Source: an uncultured Methylomirabilota bacterium
GTDB lineage: Bacteria; Methylomirabilota; Methylomirabilia; Methylomirabilales; 2-02-FULL-66-22
Length of the DNA stretch: 64,000 nt
Assembly: GCA_963845565.1 (NCBI GenBank)
Contig: CAWJSJ010000006.1
Coordinates: 1-64,000 of the forward strand
Reading direction: 5' to 3'
Shown here: piece after piece, positions 7,391-48,101 of the stretch
Position numbering within the stretch: the stretch's first letter is position 1
Layout: each line of letters starts with the position of its first letter
Position numbers and translations under genes: made by a program
The notes under the pieces: generated by a model
What the model was told of the DNA's origin: nothing
The model's database searches: none
Seen by the model: the letters and a program-made list of their open reading frames with translations, nothing else

Positions 7391-7503
7391 TTCTCATCCA
7401 GAGTGGCAGAGGGATAGGCCCTACGAAGCCACGGCAACCCCGCACCAAATGCGGGGTGCCAACTCCTACCCCGGCGGTACGTTCGGTCGGGGAAAGATGA
7501 GAG
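7391..7503 (+). ncRNA. SAM-I (S-box) riboswitch
   Basis: CTCATCCAGAG..GGCAGAGGGA..GGCCC..GAAGCC..GGCAACC...GGTGCCAACTCC...GAAAGATGAG consensus; P1 TTCTCATC/GATGAGAG; upstream of metY. Confidence 0.96.
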
Positions 7504-7588: not shown

Positions 7589-9134
<1,546 letters not shown>

Positions 9135-23488: not shown

Positions 23489-26400
23489 CTACGCGTGCGG
23501 TACTGCAGACACGGCGGGGGTGCGGCGCAGCAGGCGGGCCAGCCAGGCGCGCGGGGCAAAGTTTACGGCAATGTCGTCGAAGATCGAGTAGGCGACCGGC
23601 GTCGCCAGGAGCGTGAGCAGCAACGCCAGGGTCTGCCCGCCGGCGATCACCGATCCGATGGCCCGGTTATCGCCGGAGCCCGGCCCGCTGCTGATGAGGA
23701 GCGGCAGCATCCCGGCGACGAAGGCCAGGGTGGTCATCAGGATGGGGCGCAGCCGGTCGCGGTTGGCCTGGATGATGGCTTCCGCTCGCGGCATGCCCTC
23801 GGCCCGCAGGCCGATCATGTGGTCGATCTGCAGGATCGAATTCTTCTTCACGATCCCGAAGAGCACCAGCAGGCCCAGTGCCGACAGGATGTTCAGGGAC
23901 TGCTGGAAGATGAGGATGGAGAGCAGGGCGAACGGGACCGTGAGCGGCAGGGCCAGGAGGATCGTCACGGGGTGGAGCCAGGACTCGAACTGGGCCGCCA
24001 GGATGAGGTACATGAAGATGATGGACAGCAGGAAGGCCAGGCCGAAGTTCAACGCCGCGGTGCCCATCTCCTTCGACGTGCCGGTCGTCCCCACACGATA
24101 GGCCGGGTCGAGGTTCATGGCCTTGACTTCCTTCCAGAGCGCGTCCAGGGCGGACTGCTGATCGTAGCCGGTCTGCATGTTGGCGCTGATGGTCACCTGG
24201 CGGCGGCGACCGAGGCGGTCCACCTGCGAGGGGCCGTCCGTCTCCTGGAAGCGGGCCACGTTGTCCATGCTGACGGCGCCAAGCTTTTGCGAAGGAACCG
24301 CCATCTGGCTGATCCCGTCGGCGGTCGTGCGCCATTGCTGCACGGCCCGGGCATGGACCTCGTACTGCTCGCCGTTTTCGTTGTAGGTCGAGATCTTCCG
24401 TCCGCCGACCATCACGCGGAGCGTGTCGGCCACGTCCGCCACCTGCACGCCAAGCTCCGCGGCCTTCTTTCGATCCAGGTTCACCGCCAGCTCCGGCTTG
24501 CCGAGGATCAAGCTGGTGTCGATATCGACCACGCCCGGGACCTTCGCGAGCGCGTCCGCCAGCCGGCGCGAATATCCGGCGAGTGTCGTGAGATCCGGCC
24601 CGCTGATGAAGAACGCGATCTCCTTGTTCGCCATGCCGCCACCGGAAAAGGCAGCCACCTGGGAGACGCTGGTGCGCAATTTCTCGCCGACGAATTTCGG
24701 GAGGACCGCCTTGCGCACGTCGTCCATGATCTGGAATTGCGACCGGGCGCGCGTTCGCACGTCGATCAATTTCACGAAGACAGTGGCCAGGTTCGCCGTG
24801 CGGCGATCGTCGTTCCCGACCAGGACGACGGTGTACGCCACGCCCGGGGAGTCGCTTGATCTCCCGCCCGATCCTGGTGGCGGTCAGTTCGGTCTGCTCC
24901 AGCGTGGTGCCCTCGGGCGTCCGAACCGACACCTCGAACTGGGACTCGTCGTTCTTGGGCAAGAAGTCCTTGCCGACCGCCATGAAGAGCGGCACGATCG
25001 ATACCAACGCCACCACCGACGCGGTGACGATCACCCATCGGTGCGCCATGGACCAGCGGAGCAAGCGCTCGTAGCCGGCGTCCAGGATCCGGAAGAATCC
25101 CGAGTCCTTGGAGGAATGCGCGGCGCCCTTTTCCACCGAGAGCCACCGGCTGGACATCATGGGGGTGAGGGTAAAAGCGACGAGCAGGGAGACGAGAATG
25201 GAGAAGGCCATGGTCAAGCCGAAGGAATACATGAATCGGCCGACAATGCCTCCCATGAAGGCTACGGGCAAAAACACCGCGACGAGGGACAAGGTGGTCG
25301 CGAGAACCGCCAGGCCGATTTCGCGCGTGCCCTCGATGGCCGCATCGAACGCGGACAGGCCCTTCTCTTCCATGTGCCGGTAGATGTTCTCCAGGACGAC
25401 GATGGCGTCGTCGATCACGATGCCGACCGCGAGCGTCAGGGCGAGCAGGGTCAGGATGTTGAGCGTGAATCCCATGGCGTACATGAGGGCGAAGGTGCTC
25501 ACGATGGATGCCGGGATGGCGATCGGCCGCGATGAGCGTGGATCGCCAGTTGCGCAGGAACAGCAGGACGACCAGGGCGGCCAGGATCGCCCCGACGATC
25601 AGGTGCTCCTGGACCGTCTTGACCGAATCCTTGATGAAATCGGACTGATCCCGGACGATCGTCCAGCTTGTAGCCCGCGGGCAGTCGCGAGCGCATGGCG
25701 TTGAGCCGTTTCGTGACCTCGTCCACGACTGCGACCGTGTTCGTGCCCGACTGTCGCTGGACGGCCAGGATCACCGCGGCCTTGCCGTCCACGTTGCCGG
25801 CGGTCTCGGCCTCCTCGGTGCCGTCCTCCGCGCGGCCGACCTGGGCGAGGGCGATCTGGGCCCCGGCCCGCGTCGCGACCACGATCCCGTCGAACTCCGG
25901 CACGCTGTTCACCCGCCCCTTCATCCGGACGGTCAATTCCCGTGCGCCCTGGCCGAGGTTTCCCCCGGGAAGCTGAAGGTTCTGGTTGGCGACCGCTCGG
26001 GTGACCTCGGCGGCGGTGAGGGTATAGGCGCGGAGGCGGGTAGGATCGAGCCAGAGGTTGACCTGCCGCAGCTGCGACCCGACCAGGGTGACCTGACCGA
26101 CGCCCGAGATGGATTCGATCTCGCGCCGGAGGGTCTTGTCTGCGAATTCGCTGATGTCCCGGGTGGAGCGATCGGCCGACACCGACACGAAGAGCACGGG
26201 AGCCGCGTCAGGGTCGAGCTTGTCCACCACCGGTTGATCGATATCCTGGGGGAGGTCGGGCAGGATCTGGTTGACCTTGTCCCGCACCTCCTGCGCGGCC
26301 ACATCGACGCTCTTCTCCAGCTTGAACTGGATGAAGACCTGCGAGACCCCCTCCGTGGACACCGAGCGGAGCTCTTCGATGCCCGAAATGGTGTTGACGG

Positions 26401-26611
26401 CGCGCTCGACCTTGTCGGTGATCTCGGTTTCGATCTCTTCCGGGGCGGCGCCGGACTGCCGCGTCGTGACCGTGATGACCGGGAAATCCACCTTGGGGAA
26501 CAGATCCACGCCCAGCTGGAAGTAGGCAAAGACTCCGACGACCGCCAGGGAGAGGACGAGGACGGACGCGAAGACGGGGCGCTTGACGGAGATTTCTGCC
26601 AGCCACTGCAT
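23489..26611 (-). CDS. RND efflux permease (AcrB family) broken by about 3 frameshifts (~25660, ~25520, ~24850)
   Basis: [40 protein letters not shown] distributed over consecutive frames. Confidence 0.9.
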
Positions 26612-42660: not shown

Positions 42661-43374
42661 TCAACCGCCCAAATAGGCCCTCTTCACTTCGGGGGCGGCG
42701 GCCAACTCTGCGGCGGAGCCGCAGAGCGTGATGCTGCCCGTCTCCAAGACGTAACCCCGTGTGGCCACGGAGAGAGCCATGCGGGCGTTTTGTTCCACCA
42801 GAAGGATGGTGGCCCCCTGTCGGTGCAGGTCGCGAATCGTCTGGAAGGTCTGCTCGACCAGCGTGGGCATCAGGCCGAGAGACACCTCGTCCAGTAGGAG
42901 CAACTGGGGCCGGCTGACCAGGGACCGGGCGATGGCGAGCATCTGCTGTTCACCGCCGGAGAGTGTCTTTCCCCGCTGGCGCGAACGCTCGCGAAGGCGC
43001 GGAAAGAGCGTGTAGGCGCTCTCCAGTGCCGCGGAGACCTCGCCGGCGCTCGAGAGGACGTACGCCCCTAGGCGCAGGTTCTCTTCCACGGTCAGGTCGG
43101 GGAGGATGCGCCGCCCTTCGGGAACCAGACTGATCCCGCGGCGGGCCCGAGCGTGCGGGGCCTCGGACGTGATGTCGGCGCCATCGAACAGGATCCGCCC
43201 TCCGCGCGGCCGCTGGAGACCCATCACGGCGCGCAGCGTGGTACTCTTGCCCGCGCCGTTCGCCCCGATGATGGTGACCAGGTCACCGCGGTGCACCTCG
43301 AAGCTCACGCCACGCACGGCCGCGAATTCGCCGTACGTTACCTCGAGGTTTCGGACTTCCAACAGCACTGTCAT
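42661..43374 (-). CDS. livF: Branched-chain amino acid-type ABC ATPase
   Basis: GANGAGKST, VPEGRRI, LSGGEQQML. Confidence 0.93.
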   Translation of the reverse strand: MTVLLEVRNLEVTYGEFAAVRGVSFEVHRGDLVTIIGANGAGKSTTLRAVMGLQRPRGGRILFDGADITSEAPHARARRGISLVPEGRRILPDLTVEENLRLGAYVLSSAGEVSAALESAYTLFPRLRERSRQRGKTLSGGEQQMLAIARSLVSRPQLLLLDEVSLGLMPTLVEQTFQTIRDLHRQGATILLVEQNARMALSVATRGYVLETGSITLCGSAAELAAAPEVKRAYLGG

Positions 43375-43456
43375 TGGTCGACTCGTCGAGAAGTCAATTC
43401 GTGAGTACGGTTGGTCCGTGGCCAAATCGACCATTCGACCAATCGACTAATTGACT
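43374..43456. repeat. Inverted array of 8-bp units
   Basis: TTGGTCGA/CTCGTCGA/GAAGTCAA ... TCGACCAT/TCGACCAA/TCGACTAA/TTGACT. Confidence 0.75.
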
Positions 43457-44196
43457 GTCTTCCCAAGGTACGCCTCGATGACCTCTGGATTCCGCTGGAT
43501 CGCGGCGGGATCGCCTGCGGCGATCTTGACGCCGTGGTCCAGAACCACCAGGCGATGGCAGACGTCCATCACCATGGGCATGTTGTGCTCAATCAGGATG
43601 ACGCTGACGCCTTCCCGGTTCAGGGTGCGGATCAGTTCGAGGAGCTGTTGGGACTCCTCGTGGCGAAGACCGCCCGACGGTTCGTCGAGCAGGAGAAGCT
43701 TGGGTTTCAGGGCCAGGGCGCGCGCGATCTCCAGGCGTTTCTTCAGGCCAAGCGGCAGCGTGCCGGCCAAGCGGTCGTGCCCGGCCGCGAGCCCCACCCG
43801 TGTCAGCAGAGCGGCGGCCGCCTGGCGATTGGCCGAGGTGGCGTAGACCATGGCGGAGCTTCGCAGCGCGGGATACGCCTGATGGCCAATGGCCACCAGG
43901 ACGTTGTCTGTGAGCGACAGCGTGGGGAAGGGGCGAACGATCTGGAAGGTGCGGCCGATTCCGCGGCGCGCAATCTCGAAGGGGCGCTTCCCCTGGATGG
44001 CCTCTCCACGGTACCGGATGACACCGCGGCTCGGGTGGATCATGCCGGTGATGCAATTGAACAGCGTGGTCTTGCCCGCGCCGTTCGGCCCGATGACGCC
44101 GAGGATCTCCCGCTCCTCGACGGCGAAGGCCACGTCCTGGAGGGCGGTTACGCCGTCGAATTCCTTCGTGAGAGAGTCAATCTCGAGAAGCACCAC
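43447..44196 (-). CDS. livG: Branched-chain amino acid-type ABC ATPase
   Basis: GPNGAGKTT, GRTFQ, LLLDEP, VIEAYLG. Confidence 0.93.
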   Translation of the reverse strand: MVLLEIDSLTKEFDGVTALQDVAFAVEEREILGVIGPNGAGKTTLFNCITGMIHPSRGVIRYRGEAIQGKRPFEIARRGIGRTFQIVRPFPTLSLTDNVLVAIGHQAYPALRSSAMVYATSANRQAAAALLTRVGLAAGHDRLAGTLPLGLKKRLEIARALALKPKLLLLDEPSGGLRHEESQQLLELIRTLNREGVSVILIEHNMPMVMDVCHRLVVLDHGVKIAAGDPAAIQRNPEVIEAYLGKTVN

Positions 44197-44215: not shown

Positions 44216-44315
44216 AACCACAGATTTCACGGATTTCACAGAGGAAGCAGACCCCTTCCCGATAGACCCAGGATCCGAACCAGAAGAATCTGTGTAATCT
44301 GCGTAATCGGTGGTT
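44216..44315. repeat. Solo 9-bp-unit palindromic element
   Basis: AACCACAGATTTCACGGATTTCACAGA ... ATCTGTGTAATCTGCGTAATCGGTGGTT. Confidence 0.88.
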
Positions 44316-44356: not shown

Positions 44357-45232
44357 CTACGGTATACCGAGCGCCATCCCGCGCACGAGGAGGCTCTGGT
44401 CCCCGAGGATCCCGTCCGGCTGGAAACGCATCAGCAAGAGCAGGAGGATTCCGTACAGGAGCGTGCGGTACTCCATGGCCGGCCGGGAGATCTCCGGCAG
44501 CGCGCCCAGGATGATCGCCCCCACGATGGGTCCCCGGAGCGTGCCGATGCCCCCGAACACGACCATCGAGAGAATGACCATGGACTGGGCGAAGCCGAAA
44601 TTGACCGGCATGATGAATGTCAGAAAATGGGCGTATAGACTGCCGGCCAGCCCCGCCCCGGCGCTCCCCAATGTGAAGGCCAGGACCTTGAAGCGAACCA
44701 CGTCGATCCCCATGGCGCCGGCCGCCTGCTCGTCTTCGCGAATCGCCGCCCAAGCCAGGCCGATCCACGATCGCGTGAGCCAGCGATCGGCGGCGATCGT
44801 CACCAGAATCACGACGCACACCAGGATGAGGAATCCCGACTTGCCGATCTCCGCGCCAAAAACGCTGGGCGGTTCGATTCCACCGATCCCCATACCGGCG
44901 CCGAAGAAGGGGATGTACAGGAAGACCGCCTCGATCACGAAGTTGATGCCCATCGTGGTGATGGCCAGGAAATCCTCGCGGACACGGAGGCAGGGGATCG
45001 CCAGGATCGCTCCCACCAGGCCGGCCATGAGACCGGCGATAAGAAAGGACGGCCAGAAACTGAACCCCGCCTTGGTGAAGAGGAGGGCGGACGTGTACGC
45101 CCCGATCCCCATGAACGCGGCATGGCCCAGCGAGATCTGACCCGCGTAGCCCGTGATGATGTTCAGGCTGAGGGCCAGAATGATATAGATCCCGATGGTG
45201 ATCAGGACCGTGATCGTGTATCCGCTCAACAC
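44357..45232 (-). CDS. livM: Branched-chain amino acid-type ABC permease
   Basis: GYAGQISLGHAAF, AIREDE.AA.AMGI, GGIGTLRG. Confidence 0.92.
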   Translation of the reverse strand: MLSGYTITVLITIGIYIILALSLNIITGYAGQISLGHAAFMGIGAYTSALLFTKAGFSFWPSFLIAGLMAGLVGAILAIPCLRVREDFLAITTMGINFVIEAVFLYIPFFGAGMGIGGIEPPSVFGAEIGKSGFLILVCVVILVTIAADRWLTRSWIGLAWAAIREDEQAAGAMGIDVVRFKVLAFTLGSAGAGLAGSLYAHFLTFIMPVNFGFAQSMVILSMVVFGGIGTLRGPIVGAIILGALPEISRPAMEYRTLLYGILLLLLMRFQPDGILGDQSLLVRGMALGIP

Positions 45233-45252
45233 CTGAGAAGACCCCTTGGGTT

Positions 45253-45398
45253 AACCACAGATTGCACAGATGACACAGATAGCACAGATGCAGCCCCGGG
45301 GTCCGATACCGGGGAAATCTGTGTAATCTGTGGTTTCACGTAACACCGGAAGAATACCCCGTGGGCAACCACAGATTTCACAGATTACACAGATGGGT
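45253..45398. repeat. 9-bp-unit palindrome, 31-bp spacer and a further left arm (downstream flank of the GxxExxY gene)
   Basis: AACCACAGATTGCACAGATGACACAGAT...ATCTGTGTAATCTGTGGTT; spacer 45336-45366; AACCACAGATTTCACAGATTACACAGAT. Confidence 0.9.
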
Positions 45399-45768
45399 CA
45401 TGGCCGGACACAAACCTCCTGTGCTGAAGCGAAGGCGCCCCGAAGTTGAGGAGGAGGGCAATGCGTAGGCCTGATGCCTTCAGGTAATTGAGAACCTGAG
45501 CCTCGTCAACGACGGTTAATTGCCGGATAGCTTTCAGTTCCAGGATTACCGAATCAAAACATATGAAGTCCGCACGGTAGGTAGGGGAGAGCTTCTCTCC
45601 CTTATAAAAAACGGGAATCTCACTCTGCGCGCGAAACGGAACGTTGCGCAAGCCAAGTTCCTTGGCCAGGGCGTCCTGGTACACCGCCTCAAGAAAACCC
45701 GGACCGAGTATCCGGTGAACTTCCAACGCCGCCCCGATTATCGCGTGCGTCCTAGCATCCCTTTCCAC
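45385..45768 (-). CDS. GxxExxY family protein (putative PD-(D/E)XK nuclease), 127 aa
   Basis: IIGAALEVH..LGPGFLEAVY, RADF, ILELKA, QVLNYL, LLLNFG; GTG 45768 with GGGAG RBS (longest ORF extends to 45834). Confidence 0.92.
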   Translation of the reverse strand: MERDARTHAIIGAALEVHRILGPGFLEAVYQDALAKELGLRNVPFRAQSEIPVFYKGEKLSPTYRADFICFDSVILELKAIRQLTVVDEAQVLNYLKASGLRIALLLNFGAPSLQHRRFVSGHDPSV

Positions 45769-45792
45769 GTCGGCTCCCGATTCAACTAGGGT

Positions 45793-45995
45793 AACCACAG
45801 ATTGCACAGATGGGTTAGGACCCGGATCCTGCATTAATCTGTGTAATCTGCGTAATCTGTGGTTTCACGTAACACCGGAAGAATACCCCGTGGGCAACCA
45901 CAGATTGCACAGATTCCACAGATTCCACAGATGGCACAGATTTGGCCCCGGGTCCGAACACAGAGAAATCTGTGTAATCTGTGAAATCTGTGGTT
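45793..45995. repeat. Two tandem 9-bp-unit palindromes separated by the same 31-bp spacer (upstream flank of the GxxExxY gene)
   Basis: Elements 45793-45864 and 45896-45995; spacer 45865-45895 identical to 45336-45366. Confidence 0.9.
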
Positions 45996-46002
45996 TCGCG
46001 CC

Positions 46003-46860
46003 TCAGCCTTTTCCTAGCAGCCCGTGGGGGCGGAACATCAGGACCAGGATCATGGCCACGAACGCCAGGGCATCGCGCGGGAACGGGATGGCCACCACCC
46101 CGATCAGGAGCGTCTCTGCCAGTCCGATAAGGAACGAGGCCAGGACGCTTCCCGGGATGTTTCCCAGGCCGCCGAGGACGACGATTGCAAGACACTTGTA
46201 TGCGGGGATGCTGCCCATCGTCGGCCACACCTGATTATCGTAGACGCCGATGAGGACGCCCGCCGCACCGGCCAGGGCGGAGCCGATGACGAAGTTCAAG
46301 GTGACTACCAGCCGGGTGTTCACGCCGAACGTCGAGGTGGTGTCGGCATCCATGGCGGTGGCCCGCATGCTGAGGCCGACGGCGGAGCGGGACAAAAGAA
46401 GCCAGAGGAGTCCGAGCAATCCCAGCGTCACAGTGAAGATCAGGCTCTGTGGAGAGCTCAGACGGAGCGGCCCGGCGCTCAAGGCGGGGAAATGGATCTC
46501 GGCATCGTAGGCCAGGGCATAGGGTCCTGCGACGATGCGGAATGCCTCCTCCATGGCGATGAAAAGCCCAATGCTTCCGATGAGCGGCACGATCCGCGGC
46601 AGATGGAGGAGCGGAGCGTAGAGGAACCGCTCCACCAGGACCCCGACCACGGCGCACACGGCCATGGCTACGGCCAGGCTCAGCCAGAAGTTCCCGAGGA
46701 GCCGGAATGCGACGACACCCGAGTAGGCGCCCAGGGCATAGATGCCCGCGTGGGCCACGTGGAGCACGCGCAGCACGCCGTACACCATGGTGAGGCCCAG
46801 TGTGGTGAGGGCGTACACGGCGCCGGTGGCAATTCCATTGGCGATCTGCTGCCAAATCAT
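46003..46860 (-). CDS. livH: Branched-chain amino acid-type ABC permease
   Basis: QQIANGIATGAVYAL..LGLTMVYG, VLGGLGNIPG, FRPHGLLG. Confidence 0.93.
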   Translation of the reverse strand: MIWQQIANGIATGAVYALTTLGLTMVYGVLRVLHVAHAGIYALGAYSGVVAFRLLGNFWLSLAVAMAVCAVVGVLVERFLYAPLLHLPRIVPLIGSIGLFIAMEEAFRIVAGPYALAYDAEIHFPALSAGPLRLSSPQSLIFTVTLGLLGLLWLLLSRSAVGLSMRATAMDADTTSTFGVNTRLVVTLNFVIGSALAGAAGVLIGVYDNQVWPTMGSIPAYKCLAIVVLGGLGNIPGSVLASFLIGLAETLLIGVVAIPFPRDALAFVAMILVLMFRPHGLLGKG

Positions 46861-46937: not shown

Positions 46938-48101
46938 CTATTGTGCGGGCGTGATGACCTCGGGATTGTCCACCACGCCGTGGCGGCGGAACTTGCCGTT
47001 CTTCACGATCTGGAACTGGACGGGCTTCACGACCTCGCCCTTGACGAACTTGCTGATCTTGCCGGTGAGTCCGTTGTAATCCTTCGTCTCCAGCAGGGCC
47101 TTGATGACGTCCTGGCGATTCACGGAGCCGGCGCGGCCGACGGCGTTCACCAGGATCATGAAGGCATCATAGCTCGACGCGCCCACCATGTCGGGGTCGA
47201 TGTTGTAGGCTTGCTTATAGTTCTTCAGGTAGTTCTGCACCACCGGGCGGGGGTCGTCGCGGTCCAGATTGGTGGCGATGATCACCCCTTCCGCGGTCCC
47301 CTTGGCCAGCTCGATGAACTTGGGCGAGTCGAACCCCTCCTCTGCGAGGATCGGGGTCGTGATGCCGAGCTCCTTAGCCTGCAAGGTCATCAGAGCGGCC
47401 ACGTCATAGTACCCCGCAGCGAAGATGAGGTCTGGCTTGGCCTCCTTGATCCGTGTCAGGAACGGGCGGAAGTCCTTCTCGCCGGGGTACTTGTACACTT
47501 GCTGGAGCAGGACCTTGGCTCCGAGTTTCTCGGCTCGCTTGGCGAAGCCCGCCGAGATCTCGCGTCCGAAGTCGTTGTCCATGTTGAGGATGGCGGGGTT
47601 CTTGCTCTTCAAGACCTTGACGGCGTACTCGCCGGCCGCACCACCTTCGACTTCGCCGAGGAACCCGTTCCGGAAGTTGGAGTCGCTGCCCTTGGTCACG
47701 TCCGGGTGGACGGCATAGCCGGCGACCATGGGGACGCGCGCCTTGGAAAAGATCGGGGCGGTCACGCGGGTCGGACCGCTGTAGGAGCCACTGACCACGC
47801 CCACGACCTGGTCCCTCTCGATCAGTTTGTTGGCGATGGCCACGGCCTCTTGCGGGTTCAGCCGATCGTCGTACACGATCAGCTCGACCTTCTTGCCCAT
47901 GAACCCGCCCGCCGCGTTGACCTCCTTGACGGCCAGCTCGACCGACTGCTTCGCACTCGCACCGTCGGCGGCGACCGGTCCGGTGATGGGCGCGAAGAAG
48001 CCGATCTTGATTGTCTCTTGGGCGGTCGCCGGAACGACGAGATAGGTCGCCAACACGGCGACGGCGAGCAGCAGGGGCATAGCCGTTCGCATGTACTTCA
48101 T
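46938..48101 (-). CDS. livK: LivK/LivJ-type ABC substrate-binding protein
   Basis: Signal peptide, IKIGFFAPITG, EVNAAGG.MGKKVEL..YDD, YDAFMIL. Confidence 0.88.
   Translation of the reverse strand: MKYMRTAMPLLLAVAVLATYLVVPATAQETIKIGFFAPITGPVAADGASAKQSVELAVKEVNAAGGFMGKKVELIVYDDRLNPQEAVAIANKLIERDQVVGVVSGSYSGPTRVTAPIFSKARVPMVAGYAVHPDVTKGSDSNFRNGFLGEVEGGAAGEYAVKVLKSKNPAILNMDNDFGREISAGFAKRAEKLGAKVLLQQVYKYPGEKDFRPFLTRIKEAKPDLIFAAGYYDVAALMTLQAKELGITTPILAEEGFDSPKFIELAKGTAEGVIIATNLDRDDPRPVVQNYLKNYKQAYNIDPDMVGASSYDAFMILVNAVGRAGSVNRQDVIKALLETKDYNGLTGKISKFVKGEVVKPVQFQIVKNGKFRRHGVVDNPEVITPAQ

What the first reader, a model, noticed from the sequence alone, without database searches (positions are those of the whole stretch)
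45323..45906. Exact 55-bp direct repeat brackets the GxxExxY gene, defining a 529-bp excisable unit
Seen: GTAATCTGTGGTTTCACGTAACACCGGAAGAATACCCCGTGGGCAACCACAGATT occurs identically at 45323-45377 and 45852-45906. It includes a 31-bp non-periodic spacer, whereas the element loops have diverged. Inference: this is a recent integration or duplication footprint. Recombination between the copies would release a 529-bp circle carrying the gene and leave two tandem palindromes, reminiscent of a gene cassette.
Basis: partly seen in the sequence, partly recalled or inferred. Interest (0 to 1): 0.75.

Follow-up and report, generated by a model that had tools for sequence, protein, structure and literature searches.

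The report
Repeat junction duplicated around nuclease gene
The exact 55-base repeat is real, but it is the duplicated junction between neighbouring hairpin repeats that have colonised the gap between two transporter genes, one of which carries a small nuclease gene of a very widespread, barely described kind of selfish insertion.

Summary
The 55-bp direct repeat is confirmed at both coordinates, 529 bp apart. It is not a free-standing attachment site. Each copy is the junction between two neighbouring palindromic elements: the outer end of one arm, a 31-nt spacer, and the outer end of the next arm. The arms are tandem 9-bp units (CACAGATTN).

The spacer is a diverged copy of the local livM start region, so it is local DNA and not cassette-borne. 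The 64 kb hold no integrase, and the attC core motifs are absent.

The bracketed gene is a GxxExxY / PD-(D/E)XK nuclease (TIGR04256). It is co-oriented inside a liv-type ABC transporter operon and has foreign codon usage.

The same arm sequence occurs as short intergenic palindromes in many bacterial phyla and some archaea. GxxExxY genes elsewhere sit between similar tandem-unit inverted repeats. Filled and empty sites exist between related genera.

Best reading: a cluster of GxxExxY-type palindromic elements, in which local duplication or gene conversion with endpoints in the arms made the exact repeat. Deletion of the gene by recombination between the copies is possible but incidental. The wider element family appears undescribed in the searched literature.

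The parts
46003..46860 (-). livH-type ABC permease gene, upstream neighbour in the operon
   Evidence: NCBIfam LivH/UrtB-type matches, below the curated cutoffs; ORF
45896..45995 (.). Palindromic element E4. Arm F4 is 45896-45943 (5 units), the loop follows, and arm R4 is 45966-45995 (3 units). R4 is 28/28 complementary to arm F2.
   Evidence: I1, I2; DNA hairpin -25.7 kcal/mol, z -6.0
45852..45906 (.). Direct repeat copy 2: last 13 nt of arm R3, the 31-nt spacer (45865-45895), and the first 11 nt of arm F4
45793..45864 (.). Palindromic element E3, lying just upstream of the gene on the gene's strand. Arm F3 is 45793-45811, then loop c, then arm R3 at 45836-45864.
   Evidence: I20; hairpin -16.5 kcal/mol, z -4.2
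45385..45768 (-). GxxExxY / PD-(D/E)XK nuclease gene, 127 aa. The start is taken as GTG 45768, preceded by GGGAG. The stop TAA at 45385-45387 lies inside arm F2.
   Evidence: TIGR04256 E 1e-41; PF13366; homologues start at the same residue; D67/E77/K79 conserved; AF2 pLDDT 94.8; GC3 0.62 against 0.81-0.87 in the liv genes
45367..45395 (.). Arm F2 (3 units), directly downstream of the gene on the gene's strand. There is no partner arm of its own nearby.
   Evidence: I1, I4
45323..45377 (.). Direct repeat copy 1: last 13 nt of arm R1, the 31-nt spacer (45336-45366), and the first 11 nt of arm F2
45253..45335 (.). Palindromic element E1. Arm F1 is 45253-45289 (4 units), then loop a, then arm R1 at 45315-45335.
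   Evidence: I17; hairpin -24.5 kcal/mol, z -6.5
45228..45252 (.). T0: the livM ribosome-binding region and start codon. It abuts arm F1 and is a diverged paralogue of the 31-nt spacer.
   Evidence: Local alignment 19/24 identical plus 1 gap, score 26; the maximum was 20 in 3774 random windows
44357..45232 (-). livM-type ABC permease gene, downstream neighbour in the operon
   Evidence: ORF
44216..44315 (.). Element E0: a further palindrome of the same family, between livM and livG, with a loop related to those of E1, E3 and E4
   Evidence: (D1, D3); hairpin z -2.9

Best explanation
The livH-livM spacer has been colonised by a cluster of palindromic repeat elements whose arms are tandem 9-bp units (AAC-CACAGATTN...). 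One of these elements carries a promoterless GxxExxY PD-(D/E)XK nuclease gene, co-oriented with the operon.

The 55-bp repeat is the junction between adjacent elements, present twice: arm end, 31-nt inter-element spacer, next arm start. The spacer derives from the local livM 5' flank. The cluster therefore grew by local duplication of an element-plus-flank unit.

The two inner junctions were then made identical by a recombination event (unequal exchange or a short gene-conversion tract) whose endpoints lie in the repetitive arms.

The gene-bearing unit belongs to a widespread class of selfish insertions: tandem-unit inverted repeats around a GxxExxY gene, with many gene-less hairpin derivatives.

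Shown: the anatomy, the local origin of the spacer, the class-wide flanking repeats, and filled and empty sites in other genera.

Inferred:
- the order of events;
- that the nuclease acts on the arms and spreads the element by break-induced copying among them;
- that the arms form double-stranded RNA stems in the operon transcript.
For: - Anatomy. All 17 two-unit matches in 64 kb lie in two liv intergenic spacers, against 0 expected.
- Spacer similar to the livM flank at the same position relative to an arm: score 26 against a random maximum of 20, n=3774.
- The identity ends exactly where arms F2/F4 and R1/R3 differ.
- No integrase or transposase in 34 of 47 window ORFs scanned.
- Foreign composition of the gene.
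- Same arm motif in 125 or more stretches from many phyla; 55 of 125 are complete 47-154 bp palindromes.
- GxxExxY genes or remnants abut the arms in 6 of 125 of these loci.
- 7 of 10 GxxExxY genes examined have flanking inverted or direct repeats. Six score above the 99th percentile of 135 control ORFs. The seventh, L132, has a 25-nt, 92% inverted repeat that the percentile test missed because one arm lies in the annotated CDS end.
- Tandem 120-bp palindromes at 99% identity lie beside the Prevotella gene, showing that local amplification happens.
- Filled against empty sites: radA|FAD gene and fabD|fabG.
- 75 of 120 closest homologues end in SV or SA, as expected if the stop codon lies in an arm.
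- A 98%-identical homologue has the same upstream arm and leader.
Against: - A simple unequal crossover predicts a longer exact repeat, or a duplicated gene; neither is seen. A short conversion tract has to be assumed.
- The two conversion partners must already have existed, and this is not shown.
- Loops a, c and d differ much more than the spacers do, so the history is not a single recent unit duplication.
- No orthologous DNA from relatives was available. The relatives' gene-arm-flank arrangement is read only from read-through protein tails.
- The role of the nuclease is untested. The arms occur in 119 of 125 loci without any GxxExxY gene nearby, and beside other small genes, so the gene may be a passenger.
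Confidence: 0.55

Rival explanations
1. Long target-site duplication. The gene-bearing segment (about 45378-45851, itself ending in CACAGATTACACAGAT-type inverted ends) was inserted into a pre-existing arm-spacer-arm hairpin. This followed staggered cuts at symmetric positions, about 11-13 nt into each arm, and fill-in duplicated the 53-55 bp between the cuts.
For: - The repeat boundaries are near-symmetric within the two arms of a 20-bp/31-nt-loop hairpin (I15, -19.5 and -23.4 kcal/mol).
- The encoded protein has a structure-specific-nuclease fold. Foldseek hits include Hjc and the homing endonuclease I-Bth0305I, all weak.
- Two other GxxExxY genes (L131 and L133) are flanked by direct repeats that score above the control 99th percentile.
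Against: - 64 solitary elements show no long flank duplication (mean score 11.7 against control 10.9).
- The spacer also has a third, older copy at livM, which a single insertion event does not explain.
- Relatives appear to carry the gene without the extra element.
Confidence: 0.15
2. The 529 bp are a mobile cassette that excises as a circle and integrates by site-specific recombination at the 55-bp site, as integron cassettes do at attC.
For: - A small promoterless gene co-oriented with its neighbours, bracketed by imperfect palindromes.
- Arms of this kind also bound other small accessory genes in a Bacteroidales MAG: RhuM, and DUF2442 with DUF4160.
Against: - No tyrosine recombinase in the window.
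- RYYYAAC / GTTRRRY cores are absent at the arm ends (read).
- The spacer is local livM-flank sequence and occurs nowhere else in the window or the fetched loci.
- The canonical elements elsewhere are arm-gene-arm, not gene plus one site.
Confidence: 0.05
3. The two spacers are identical because selection preserves them. The arm-spacer-arm hairpin would be a functional RNA or DNA signal, for example a small terminator-like stem or a processing site flanking the nuclease mRNA.
For: - On the operon strand each copy gives a terminator-like hit: TCTGTGGTTGCCCACGGG followed by a U-rich tail.
- In the RNA fold copy 2 forms the top of a long hairpin, and a 26-28 bp stem encloses the gene.
Against: - The scan found 5 terminator-like sites against 2.3 expected, which is weak.
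- No Rfam family matches: the best E-value was 0.003 and every score was far below gathering.
- The spacer is not found in any other locus, and the third copy at livM has drifted.
Confidence: 0.1
4. Assembly artefact in a repeat-rich spacer.
For: The region holds many near-identical 19-48 nt arms. Homologues of the gene lie mostly on very short contigs, which shows that assemblers struggle with this element.
Against: The two copies sit in different, unique contexts. The repeat (55-79 nt) is shorter than ordinary reads. The structure lies in the middle of a 64-kb contig and has a coherent operon around it.
Confidence: 0.03

Closest known systems
REP/REPIN elements with their RAYT genes (recalled from the literature, not read here)
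   Same: Short intergenic palindromes in many copies and clusters. A single small gene is flanked by the repeats in inverted orientation. Gene-less copies far outnumber gene-bearing ones.
   Different: The enzyme is a PD-(D/E)XK nuclease (PF13366), not an HUH/Y1 transposase. The arms are tandem 9-bp units. The same arm sequence recurs across phyla, whereas REPs are lineage-specific. The gene family is multi-copy (18,449 clusters at E<=1e-3).
MITEs and their parent insertion sequences
   Same: Terminal inverted repeats, small size, decayed gene remnants inside some copies (Desulfosporosinus loci), and filled and empty sites.
   Different: There is no DDE or other known transposase. No target-site duplication was detected in 64 elements.
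Integron gene cassettes (attC)
   Same: A promoterless small ORF followed by an imperfect palindrome, co-oriented with its neighbours. Recombination between flanking sites would give a circle.
   Different: No IntI and no attC core motifs. The duplicated spacer is local flank sequence.
Free-standing and intron-borne PD-(D/E)XK homing endonuclease genes (I-Bth0305I appeared in the fold search; I-Ssp6803I is recalled)
   Same: A small selfish nuclease gene inserted between host genes.
   Different: There is no single conserved homing site. Insertion sites are diverse operon spacers, and the repeats travel with the gene.
Intervening sequences of 23S rRNA carrying small ORFs, and transcribed palindromes such as Correia or ERIC elements (recalled)
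   Same: Long inverted repeats bracket the insert. They are predicted to form a stem in the host transcript that RNase III could cut.
   Different: The location is an mRNA operon. The ORF family and repeat architecture differ. Processing was not tested.

Membership tests
GxxExxY protein family (TIGR04256 / PF13366 PDDEXK_3) | Profile match above the curated cutoff | tested here: met
   141.8 bits against cutoff 35; 136 bits against cutoff 22
GxxExxY protein family (TIGR04256 / PF13366 PDDEXK_3) | GxxExxY motif and the PD-(D/E)XK catalytic D...ExK | tested here: met
   G24-F-L-E27-A-V-Y30, with D67, E77 and K79 in invariant or nearly invariant columns of 60 sequences. The predicted alpha/beta core is confident (pLDDT 94.8). 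Fold matches to Cas4, lambda exonuclease and Hjc are only weak (best E 8e-4).
Integron gene cassette | Integron integrase (IntI) at or near the array | tested here: not met
   No Phage_integrase or other recombinase domain in the 34 ORFs scanned, out of 47 called in 64 kb. The rest of the genome was not available.
Integron gene cassette | attC with an inverse core RYYYAAC and a core GTTRRRY at its ends | tested here: not met
   Read. The arm ends are GGTTAAC / GGGCAAC / GGGTAAC and GTTTCAC / GTTTCGC, and none fits the consensus. The consensus itself is recalled.
Integron gene cassette | Circular excised form and empty sites | not testable with these tools
   No reads were available.
REP/RAYT system | A Y1 (HUH) RAYT transposase gene flanked by the repeats | tested here: not met
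   The flanked gene is PF13366 only.
MITE | Terminal inverted repeats on a short non-coding unit | tested here: met
   E0, E1, E3 and E4. 55 of 125 foreign loci hold 47-154 bp palindromes with the same ends.
MITE | Target-site duplication | tested here: inconclusive
   No long duplication was found in 64 elements. Short duplications of 2-4 bp were not assessed, and the filled/empty pairs come from different genera.
MITE | An autonomous partner that encodes the mobilising enzyme | not testable with these tools
   The GxxExxY gene is the only gene found between the arms. Its activity on the arms is untested.

The most novel reading that the evidence does not exclude
The tandem-nonamer palindromes (AAC-CACAGATTN...) and the GxxExxY nucleases together form a pan-prokaryotic, so far undescribed autonomous/non-autonomous mobile-element system. 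The roughly 125-aa PD-(D/E)XK nuclease cuts the hairpin or cruciform formed by the arms and spreads by break-induced copying between arm-bearing sites. On this reading the exact 55-bp repeat is the footprint of such an event: symmetric cuts in both arms, followed by fill-in or co-conversion.
Probability: 0.2. Interest if true: 0.8.

Novelty: new variant of a known kind. Interest (0 to 1): 0.5.

Why it matters
The repeat on its own is an ordinary recombination product inside a repeat cluster.

What it points to is less ordinary. A 19-nt arm motif recurs as short intergenic palindromes in Planctomycetota, Chloroflexota, Acidobacteriota, Bacteroidota, Spirochaetota, Verrucomicrobiota, Firmicutes, Proteobacteria, several candidate phyla and archaea. 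The only gene found inside such palindromes belongs to one of the largest uncharacterised nuclease families. That family inserts between operon genes.

If the nuclease mobilises the repeats, three things would be explained: the purpose of GxxExxY proteins, the fragmentation of assemblies around them, and how a sequence-specific repeat stays the same while the protein diverges to about 54% identity. It would also add a PD-(D/E)XK-based counterpart to the REPIN/RAYT and IS/MITE pairs.

Tried and rejected
- Rfam on the region at E<=1 gave only chance microRNA/riboswitch-like hairpin hits far below gathering. The whole window gave only a SAM riboswitch.
- There are no tRNA genes in the window, so a tRNA-linked integration site is excluded.
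- PADLOC and PHROGs gave 0 families for the protein.
- A sequence search of PDB gave nothing meaningful (E 0.5).
- Complex prediction on two copies of the protein returned no verdict.
- Literature: 'GxxExxY' (3 papers) and PF13366/PDDEXK_3/TIGR04256 (2 papers). I read only the matching passages of PMC3424549 and PMC8934634, and they say nothing on repeats or mobility. None of the four two-unit arm 16-mers occurs in any paper. Searches on 23S-IVS protein names found nothing relevant; I saw only listings and abstract starts.
- A long target-site duplication as a general property of the elements was rejected.
- The spacer, the loops and the gene DNA have no similarity in the fetched loci.
- Same-species filled/empty comparisons for the Prevotella and Treponema loci found no second strain carrying the locus.
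- Similarity of the spacer to the livH end is only suggestive: an 8-mer, score 16, reached by 2.1% of random windows.
- In my own HMM one seed row for L128 was a wrong-frame ORF. The strong hits do not depend on it, but the weak ones (L017, L116, L079) should be read with care.

Full report
**Observation**

The sequence GTAATCTGTGGTTTCACGTAACACCGGAAGAATACCCCGTGGGCAACCACAGATT stands at 45323-45377 and at 45852-45906. The two copies are identical, and the identity stops at once on both sides. With three mismatches the similarity runs 79 nt (D4). The inner 31 nt occur nowhere else in the 64 kb even with 3 mismatches allowed, and in none of 100 shuffles.

**Setting**

The repeat lies in the 770-bp gap between two permease genes of a liv-type ABC transporter operon on the minus strand. 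The gene order is:
- substrate-binding protein, 46938-48101;
- livH-like, 46003-46860;
- livM-like, 44357-45232;
- livG-like, 43447-44196;
- livF-like, 42661-43434.

The window is otherwise ordinary chromosome: efflux pumps, methionine genes, regulators and glycosyltransferases. No integrase or transposase was found in the 34 of 47 ORFs I scanned. There are no tRNA genes.

**Anatomy**

The gap is filled with arms made of 9-bp units. The forward arm (F) reads AAC-CACAGATTN-CACAGATTN..., and R is its reverse complement. All 17 two-unit matches in the window lie in this gap or in the livM-livG gap, against 0 expected.

From left to right the gap holds:
- T0 (45228-45252), the livM ribosome-binding region and start codon;
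- element E1: F1, loop a, R1;
- a 31-nt spacer;
- arm F2;
- the GxxExxY gene on the minus strand;
- element E3: F3, loop c, R3;
- the same 31-nt spacer again;
- element E4: F4, loop d, R4;
- 7 nt, then the livH stop codon.

A fifth palindrome, E0, sits between livM and livG. Each palindrome folds well as single-stranded DNA (z -2.9 to -6.5). The loops are related to one another but diverged (D3).

Each copy of the 55-bp repeat is therefore 13 nt of an R arm, the spacer, and 11 nt of the next F arm. The identity ends exactly where R1 differs from R3 and where F2 differs from F4. The repeat is itself a hairpin with a 31-nt loop (I15).

**The gene**

The ORF matches TIGR04256 'GxxExxY protein' and PF13366. 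I take GTG 45768 as the start. GGGAG lies 5 nt upstream, and homologues begin M/V-E-R-D-A-R-T-H at the same place. The TAA stop lies inside arm F2.

The motif G-F-L-E-A-V-Y is present, and D67, E77 and K79 are conserved. The AlphaFold model is confident (pLDDT 94.8). Its fold matches only generic PD-(D/E)XK nucleases: Cas4 SSO0001 at E 8e-4, then lambda exonuclease, Hjc and I-Bth0305I.

The gene has GC 0.55 and GC3 0.62. The window has GC 0.65, and the liv genes have GC3 0.81-0.87. The gene is foreign to its operon.

The family is huge:
- 7940 of the 8000 candidates scored reach E<=1e-10;
- 18,449 clusters at 50% identity reach E<=1e-3.

The nearest named relatives are from candidate division NC10, up to 84% identity. 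Many of the closest homologues sit on contigs of 0.5-5 kb, as expected of a repeat that breaks assemblies.

**The spacer is local DNA**

The spacer aligns with T0. T0 abuts arm F1 exactly as the spacer abuts F2 and F4. The alignment is 19 of 24 identical with one gap, score 26. Random 48-nt windows gave mean 10.3, sd 1.9 and maximum 20 (n=3774). The match covers the livM Shine-Dalgarno region and GTGTT of its start.

The cluster thus has the form flank-element-flank-element-flank-element. A weaker 8-mer match to the livH end is only suggestive (2.1% of random windows reach it).

This pattern is not a general mark of insertion. In 64 solitary elements from other genomes, left and right flanks are no more alike than shuffled pairs (11.7 against 10.9). 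Local duplication of an element together with its flank is the simpler source.

**The elements elsewhere**

Flanks were kept for 80 of them.

The hosts, by record title, are Planctomycetota (many, including anammox bacteria), Chloroflexota, Acidobacteriota, Bacteroidota, Spirochaetota, Verrucomicrobiota, Desulfosporosinus, alpha-, gamma- and delta-proteobacteria, WOR-3, Omnitrophota, Ignavibacteriota, Cloacimonadota, Sericytochromatia, and ANME-1/Methanophagales and Desulfurococcales archaea.
- 55 of the 125 hold a complete F-loop-R palindrome of 47-154 bp, median 72.
- Arm midpoints fall inside long ORFs in 41 of 96 cases, against 88% of background bases. This crude measure points to an intergenic preference.
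- Only the arms are shared. The spacer, the loops and the gene DNA find nothing in these loci.
- The very 28-mer of arm F2/R4 recurs in six loci of at least five phyla.

**Link to the gene**

From the repeat side, a GxxExxY gene or its remnant abuts an arm in 6 of the 125 loci:
- L070 has arm-gene-arm, with a frameshifted gene;
- L106 has the gene followed by an arm;
- L080, L116, L079 and L017 are Desulfosporosinus palindromes holding only a C-terminal remnant.

No other gene lies between arms within 600 bp.

From the gene side, I examined 10 genes: the window, L070, and 8 plasmid or chromid records.
- Four have flanking inverted repeats above the 99th percentile of 135 control ORFs: the window, L070, L129 and L130.
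- Three have direct repeats above that mark: the window, L131 and L133.
- L132 has a 25-nt, 92% inverted repeat whose right arm lies in the annotated CDS end.
- L126 and L127 fall below the mark. L128 has only a downstream hairpin.

The arms in these other genomes are again tandem 8-9 bp units, but with other sequences: CACAGAGGA, CACAGAGAN, CGCGAAGG, CGCGGATNN, CACGGATTC.

Among the 120 closest homologues, 46 end in SV and 29 end in SA. That is the translation of TCTGTG/TCTGCG just before a TAA inside an R arm. 88 of the 120 show some trace of an arm. This evidence is indirect, because it rests on protein tails only.

In all 7 cases with annotated neighbours, the gene is co-oriented with both of them.

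**Mobility**

- Bacteroides finegoldii has arm-gene-arm between radA and an FAD-dependent gene. Parabacteroides distasonis has 13 nt there.
- Sphingomonas parapaucimobilis has it between fabD and fabG. S. paeninsulae does not.

In both filled sites the insert begins TTCAC plus units and ends units plus GTGAA. These pairs come from different genera, so exact boundaries and short duplications cannot be read.

**How old is the insertion here?**

A homologue that is 98% identical (P0001, 45 member sequences) carries the same upstream R-type arm and the leader TLVESGAD as a read-through extension. Three homologues at 79-86% identity read through a three-unit arm into a tail ending ...EGxxxC-stop. 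That tail resembles the translation of T0, not of the spacer.

This suggests that relatives have the order gene, arm, livM flank, without E1 and its spacer. The gene would then be an old resident and the extra unit a later local addition. This is an inference from protein tails.

**How the exact repeat arose**

A plain unequal crossover between elements would duplicate everything between the exchange points. It would give either a longer exact repeat or two genes, and neither is seen.

Two routes fit the data.
- A short gene-conversion tract between two pre-existing arm-spacer-arm junctions, with endpoints in the arms. I prefer this route. The flank-element pattern already shows older duplications, and the Prevotella locus shows tandem 120-bp palindromes at 99% identity. 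These clusters are evidently being amplified and homogenised.
- Insertion of the gene-bearing segment into one junction, with a 53-55 bp duplication produced by symmetric cuts in both arms.

The perfect 28/28 pairing of F2 with R4 (I1) carries little weight, because arms differ mostly at one base per unit.

A dedicated cassette system is the least likely reading. There is no recombinase, there are no attC cores, and the spacer is local.

**What the element does**

On the operon strand, the centroid RNA structure pairs the complement of R4 with the complement of F2 over 26-28 bp, enclosing the gene (z -6.4 for the whole region). The transcript may therefore be cut there, but this is untested.

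The protein diverges (62% and 46% identity to the two pieces of L070, 54% to L106), yet the arm downstream of the gene is identical in L070 and in the window. The arms are thus under sequence constraint.

I commit, at modest confidence, to a selfish element whose nuclease acts on the arms and spreads by break-induced copying among arm-bearing sites. Against this, most arm-bearing loci have no such gene nearby. Arms also bound other small genes in a Bacteroidales MAG and surround a PemK-like pair in an anammox MAG.

**Known or new**

The protein family is catalogued, with function listed as 'Unknown' in the one survey I could read (table row in PMC3424549). I found no paper in the searched library that describes the tandem-unit repeats, the operon-spacer insertions or the arm motif. 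Subscription journals are mostly outside that library.

**Left unchecked**

Noticed in passing
window 44216-44315: A second palindrome of the same nonamer family sits between livM and livG. One operon therefore carries these elements in two of its four intergenic gaps. Its loop is related to the loops of the livH-livM cluster.
   Followed up: partly
L064 1450-3150; L090 1-830; L102 300-930 (Candidatus Anammoxibacter MAG): Long arrays of arms all in one orientation. Several unit types are mixed (CACAGATTN, CACGGATTN, CACTAATCT, CACGAANNN), separated by AAAAGC-rich filler. In L064 the arrays surround an antitoxin-like ORF and a PemK/MazF-like ORF (named from reading the sequence, not scanned). 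This is unlike the simple palindromes elsewhere.
   Followed up: no
L056 2900-5400 (Bacteroidales MAG): Three copies of a repeat of roughly 100 nt, each ending in a forward arm, spaced about 1.1 kb apart. They bound small accessory genes: a split RhuM-family gene, and a DUF2442 plus DUF4160 pair. This is a cassette-like array without GxxExxY.
   Followed up: partly
arms in window 45315-45335, 45836-45864, 45966-45995 and in L001-L125: The two commonest bases between units (TA 89 and TT 61 of 199 counted; the search pattern biases the first one) put TAA and TGA into two frames of the reverse-type arm. The frequent ending GGTTAA adds a stop in the third frame. The forward-type strand is open in all frames. 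Whichever way a ribosome enters a palindrome, the far arm would stop it.
   Followed up: no
L126-L133, L070, L106, window: Arm unit type seems to follow protein subfamily. All 6 proteins with G-F-L-E have units ending GAT. Three of 4 with G-L-L-E-S have units ending GAG or AAG. The sample is too small to test.
   Followed up: no
L070 3031-3434: The GxxExxY gene between perfect-looking arms is split by a frameshift. It also has G in place of the conserved aspartate (YVPGF against YRADF). It is either a decaying copy or a MAG sequencing error.
   Followed up: partly
window 7391-7503: A SAM riboswitch (92.5 bits) lies upstream of a Cys/Met PLP-enzyme gene (7700-9019), with metW-like and aminotransferase genes following.
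   Followed up: no
window 23667-26611: An AcrB-family gene appears as two adjacent minus-strand ORFs. 25499-26611 matches profile positions 2-316 and 23667-25502 matches 370-588. This is either a frameshifted pseudogene or an artefact of my ORF calling.
   Followed up: no
P0121, P0135, P0141, P0160 and others: Some family members are 250-295 aa long with two GxxExxY domains in tandem.
   Followed up: no
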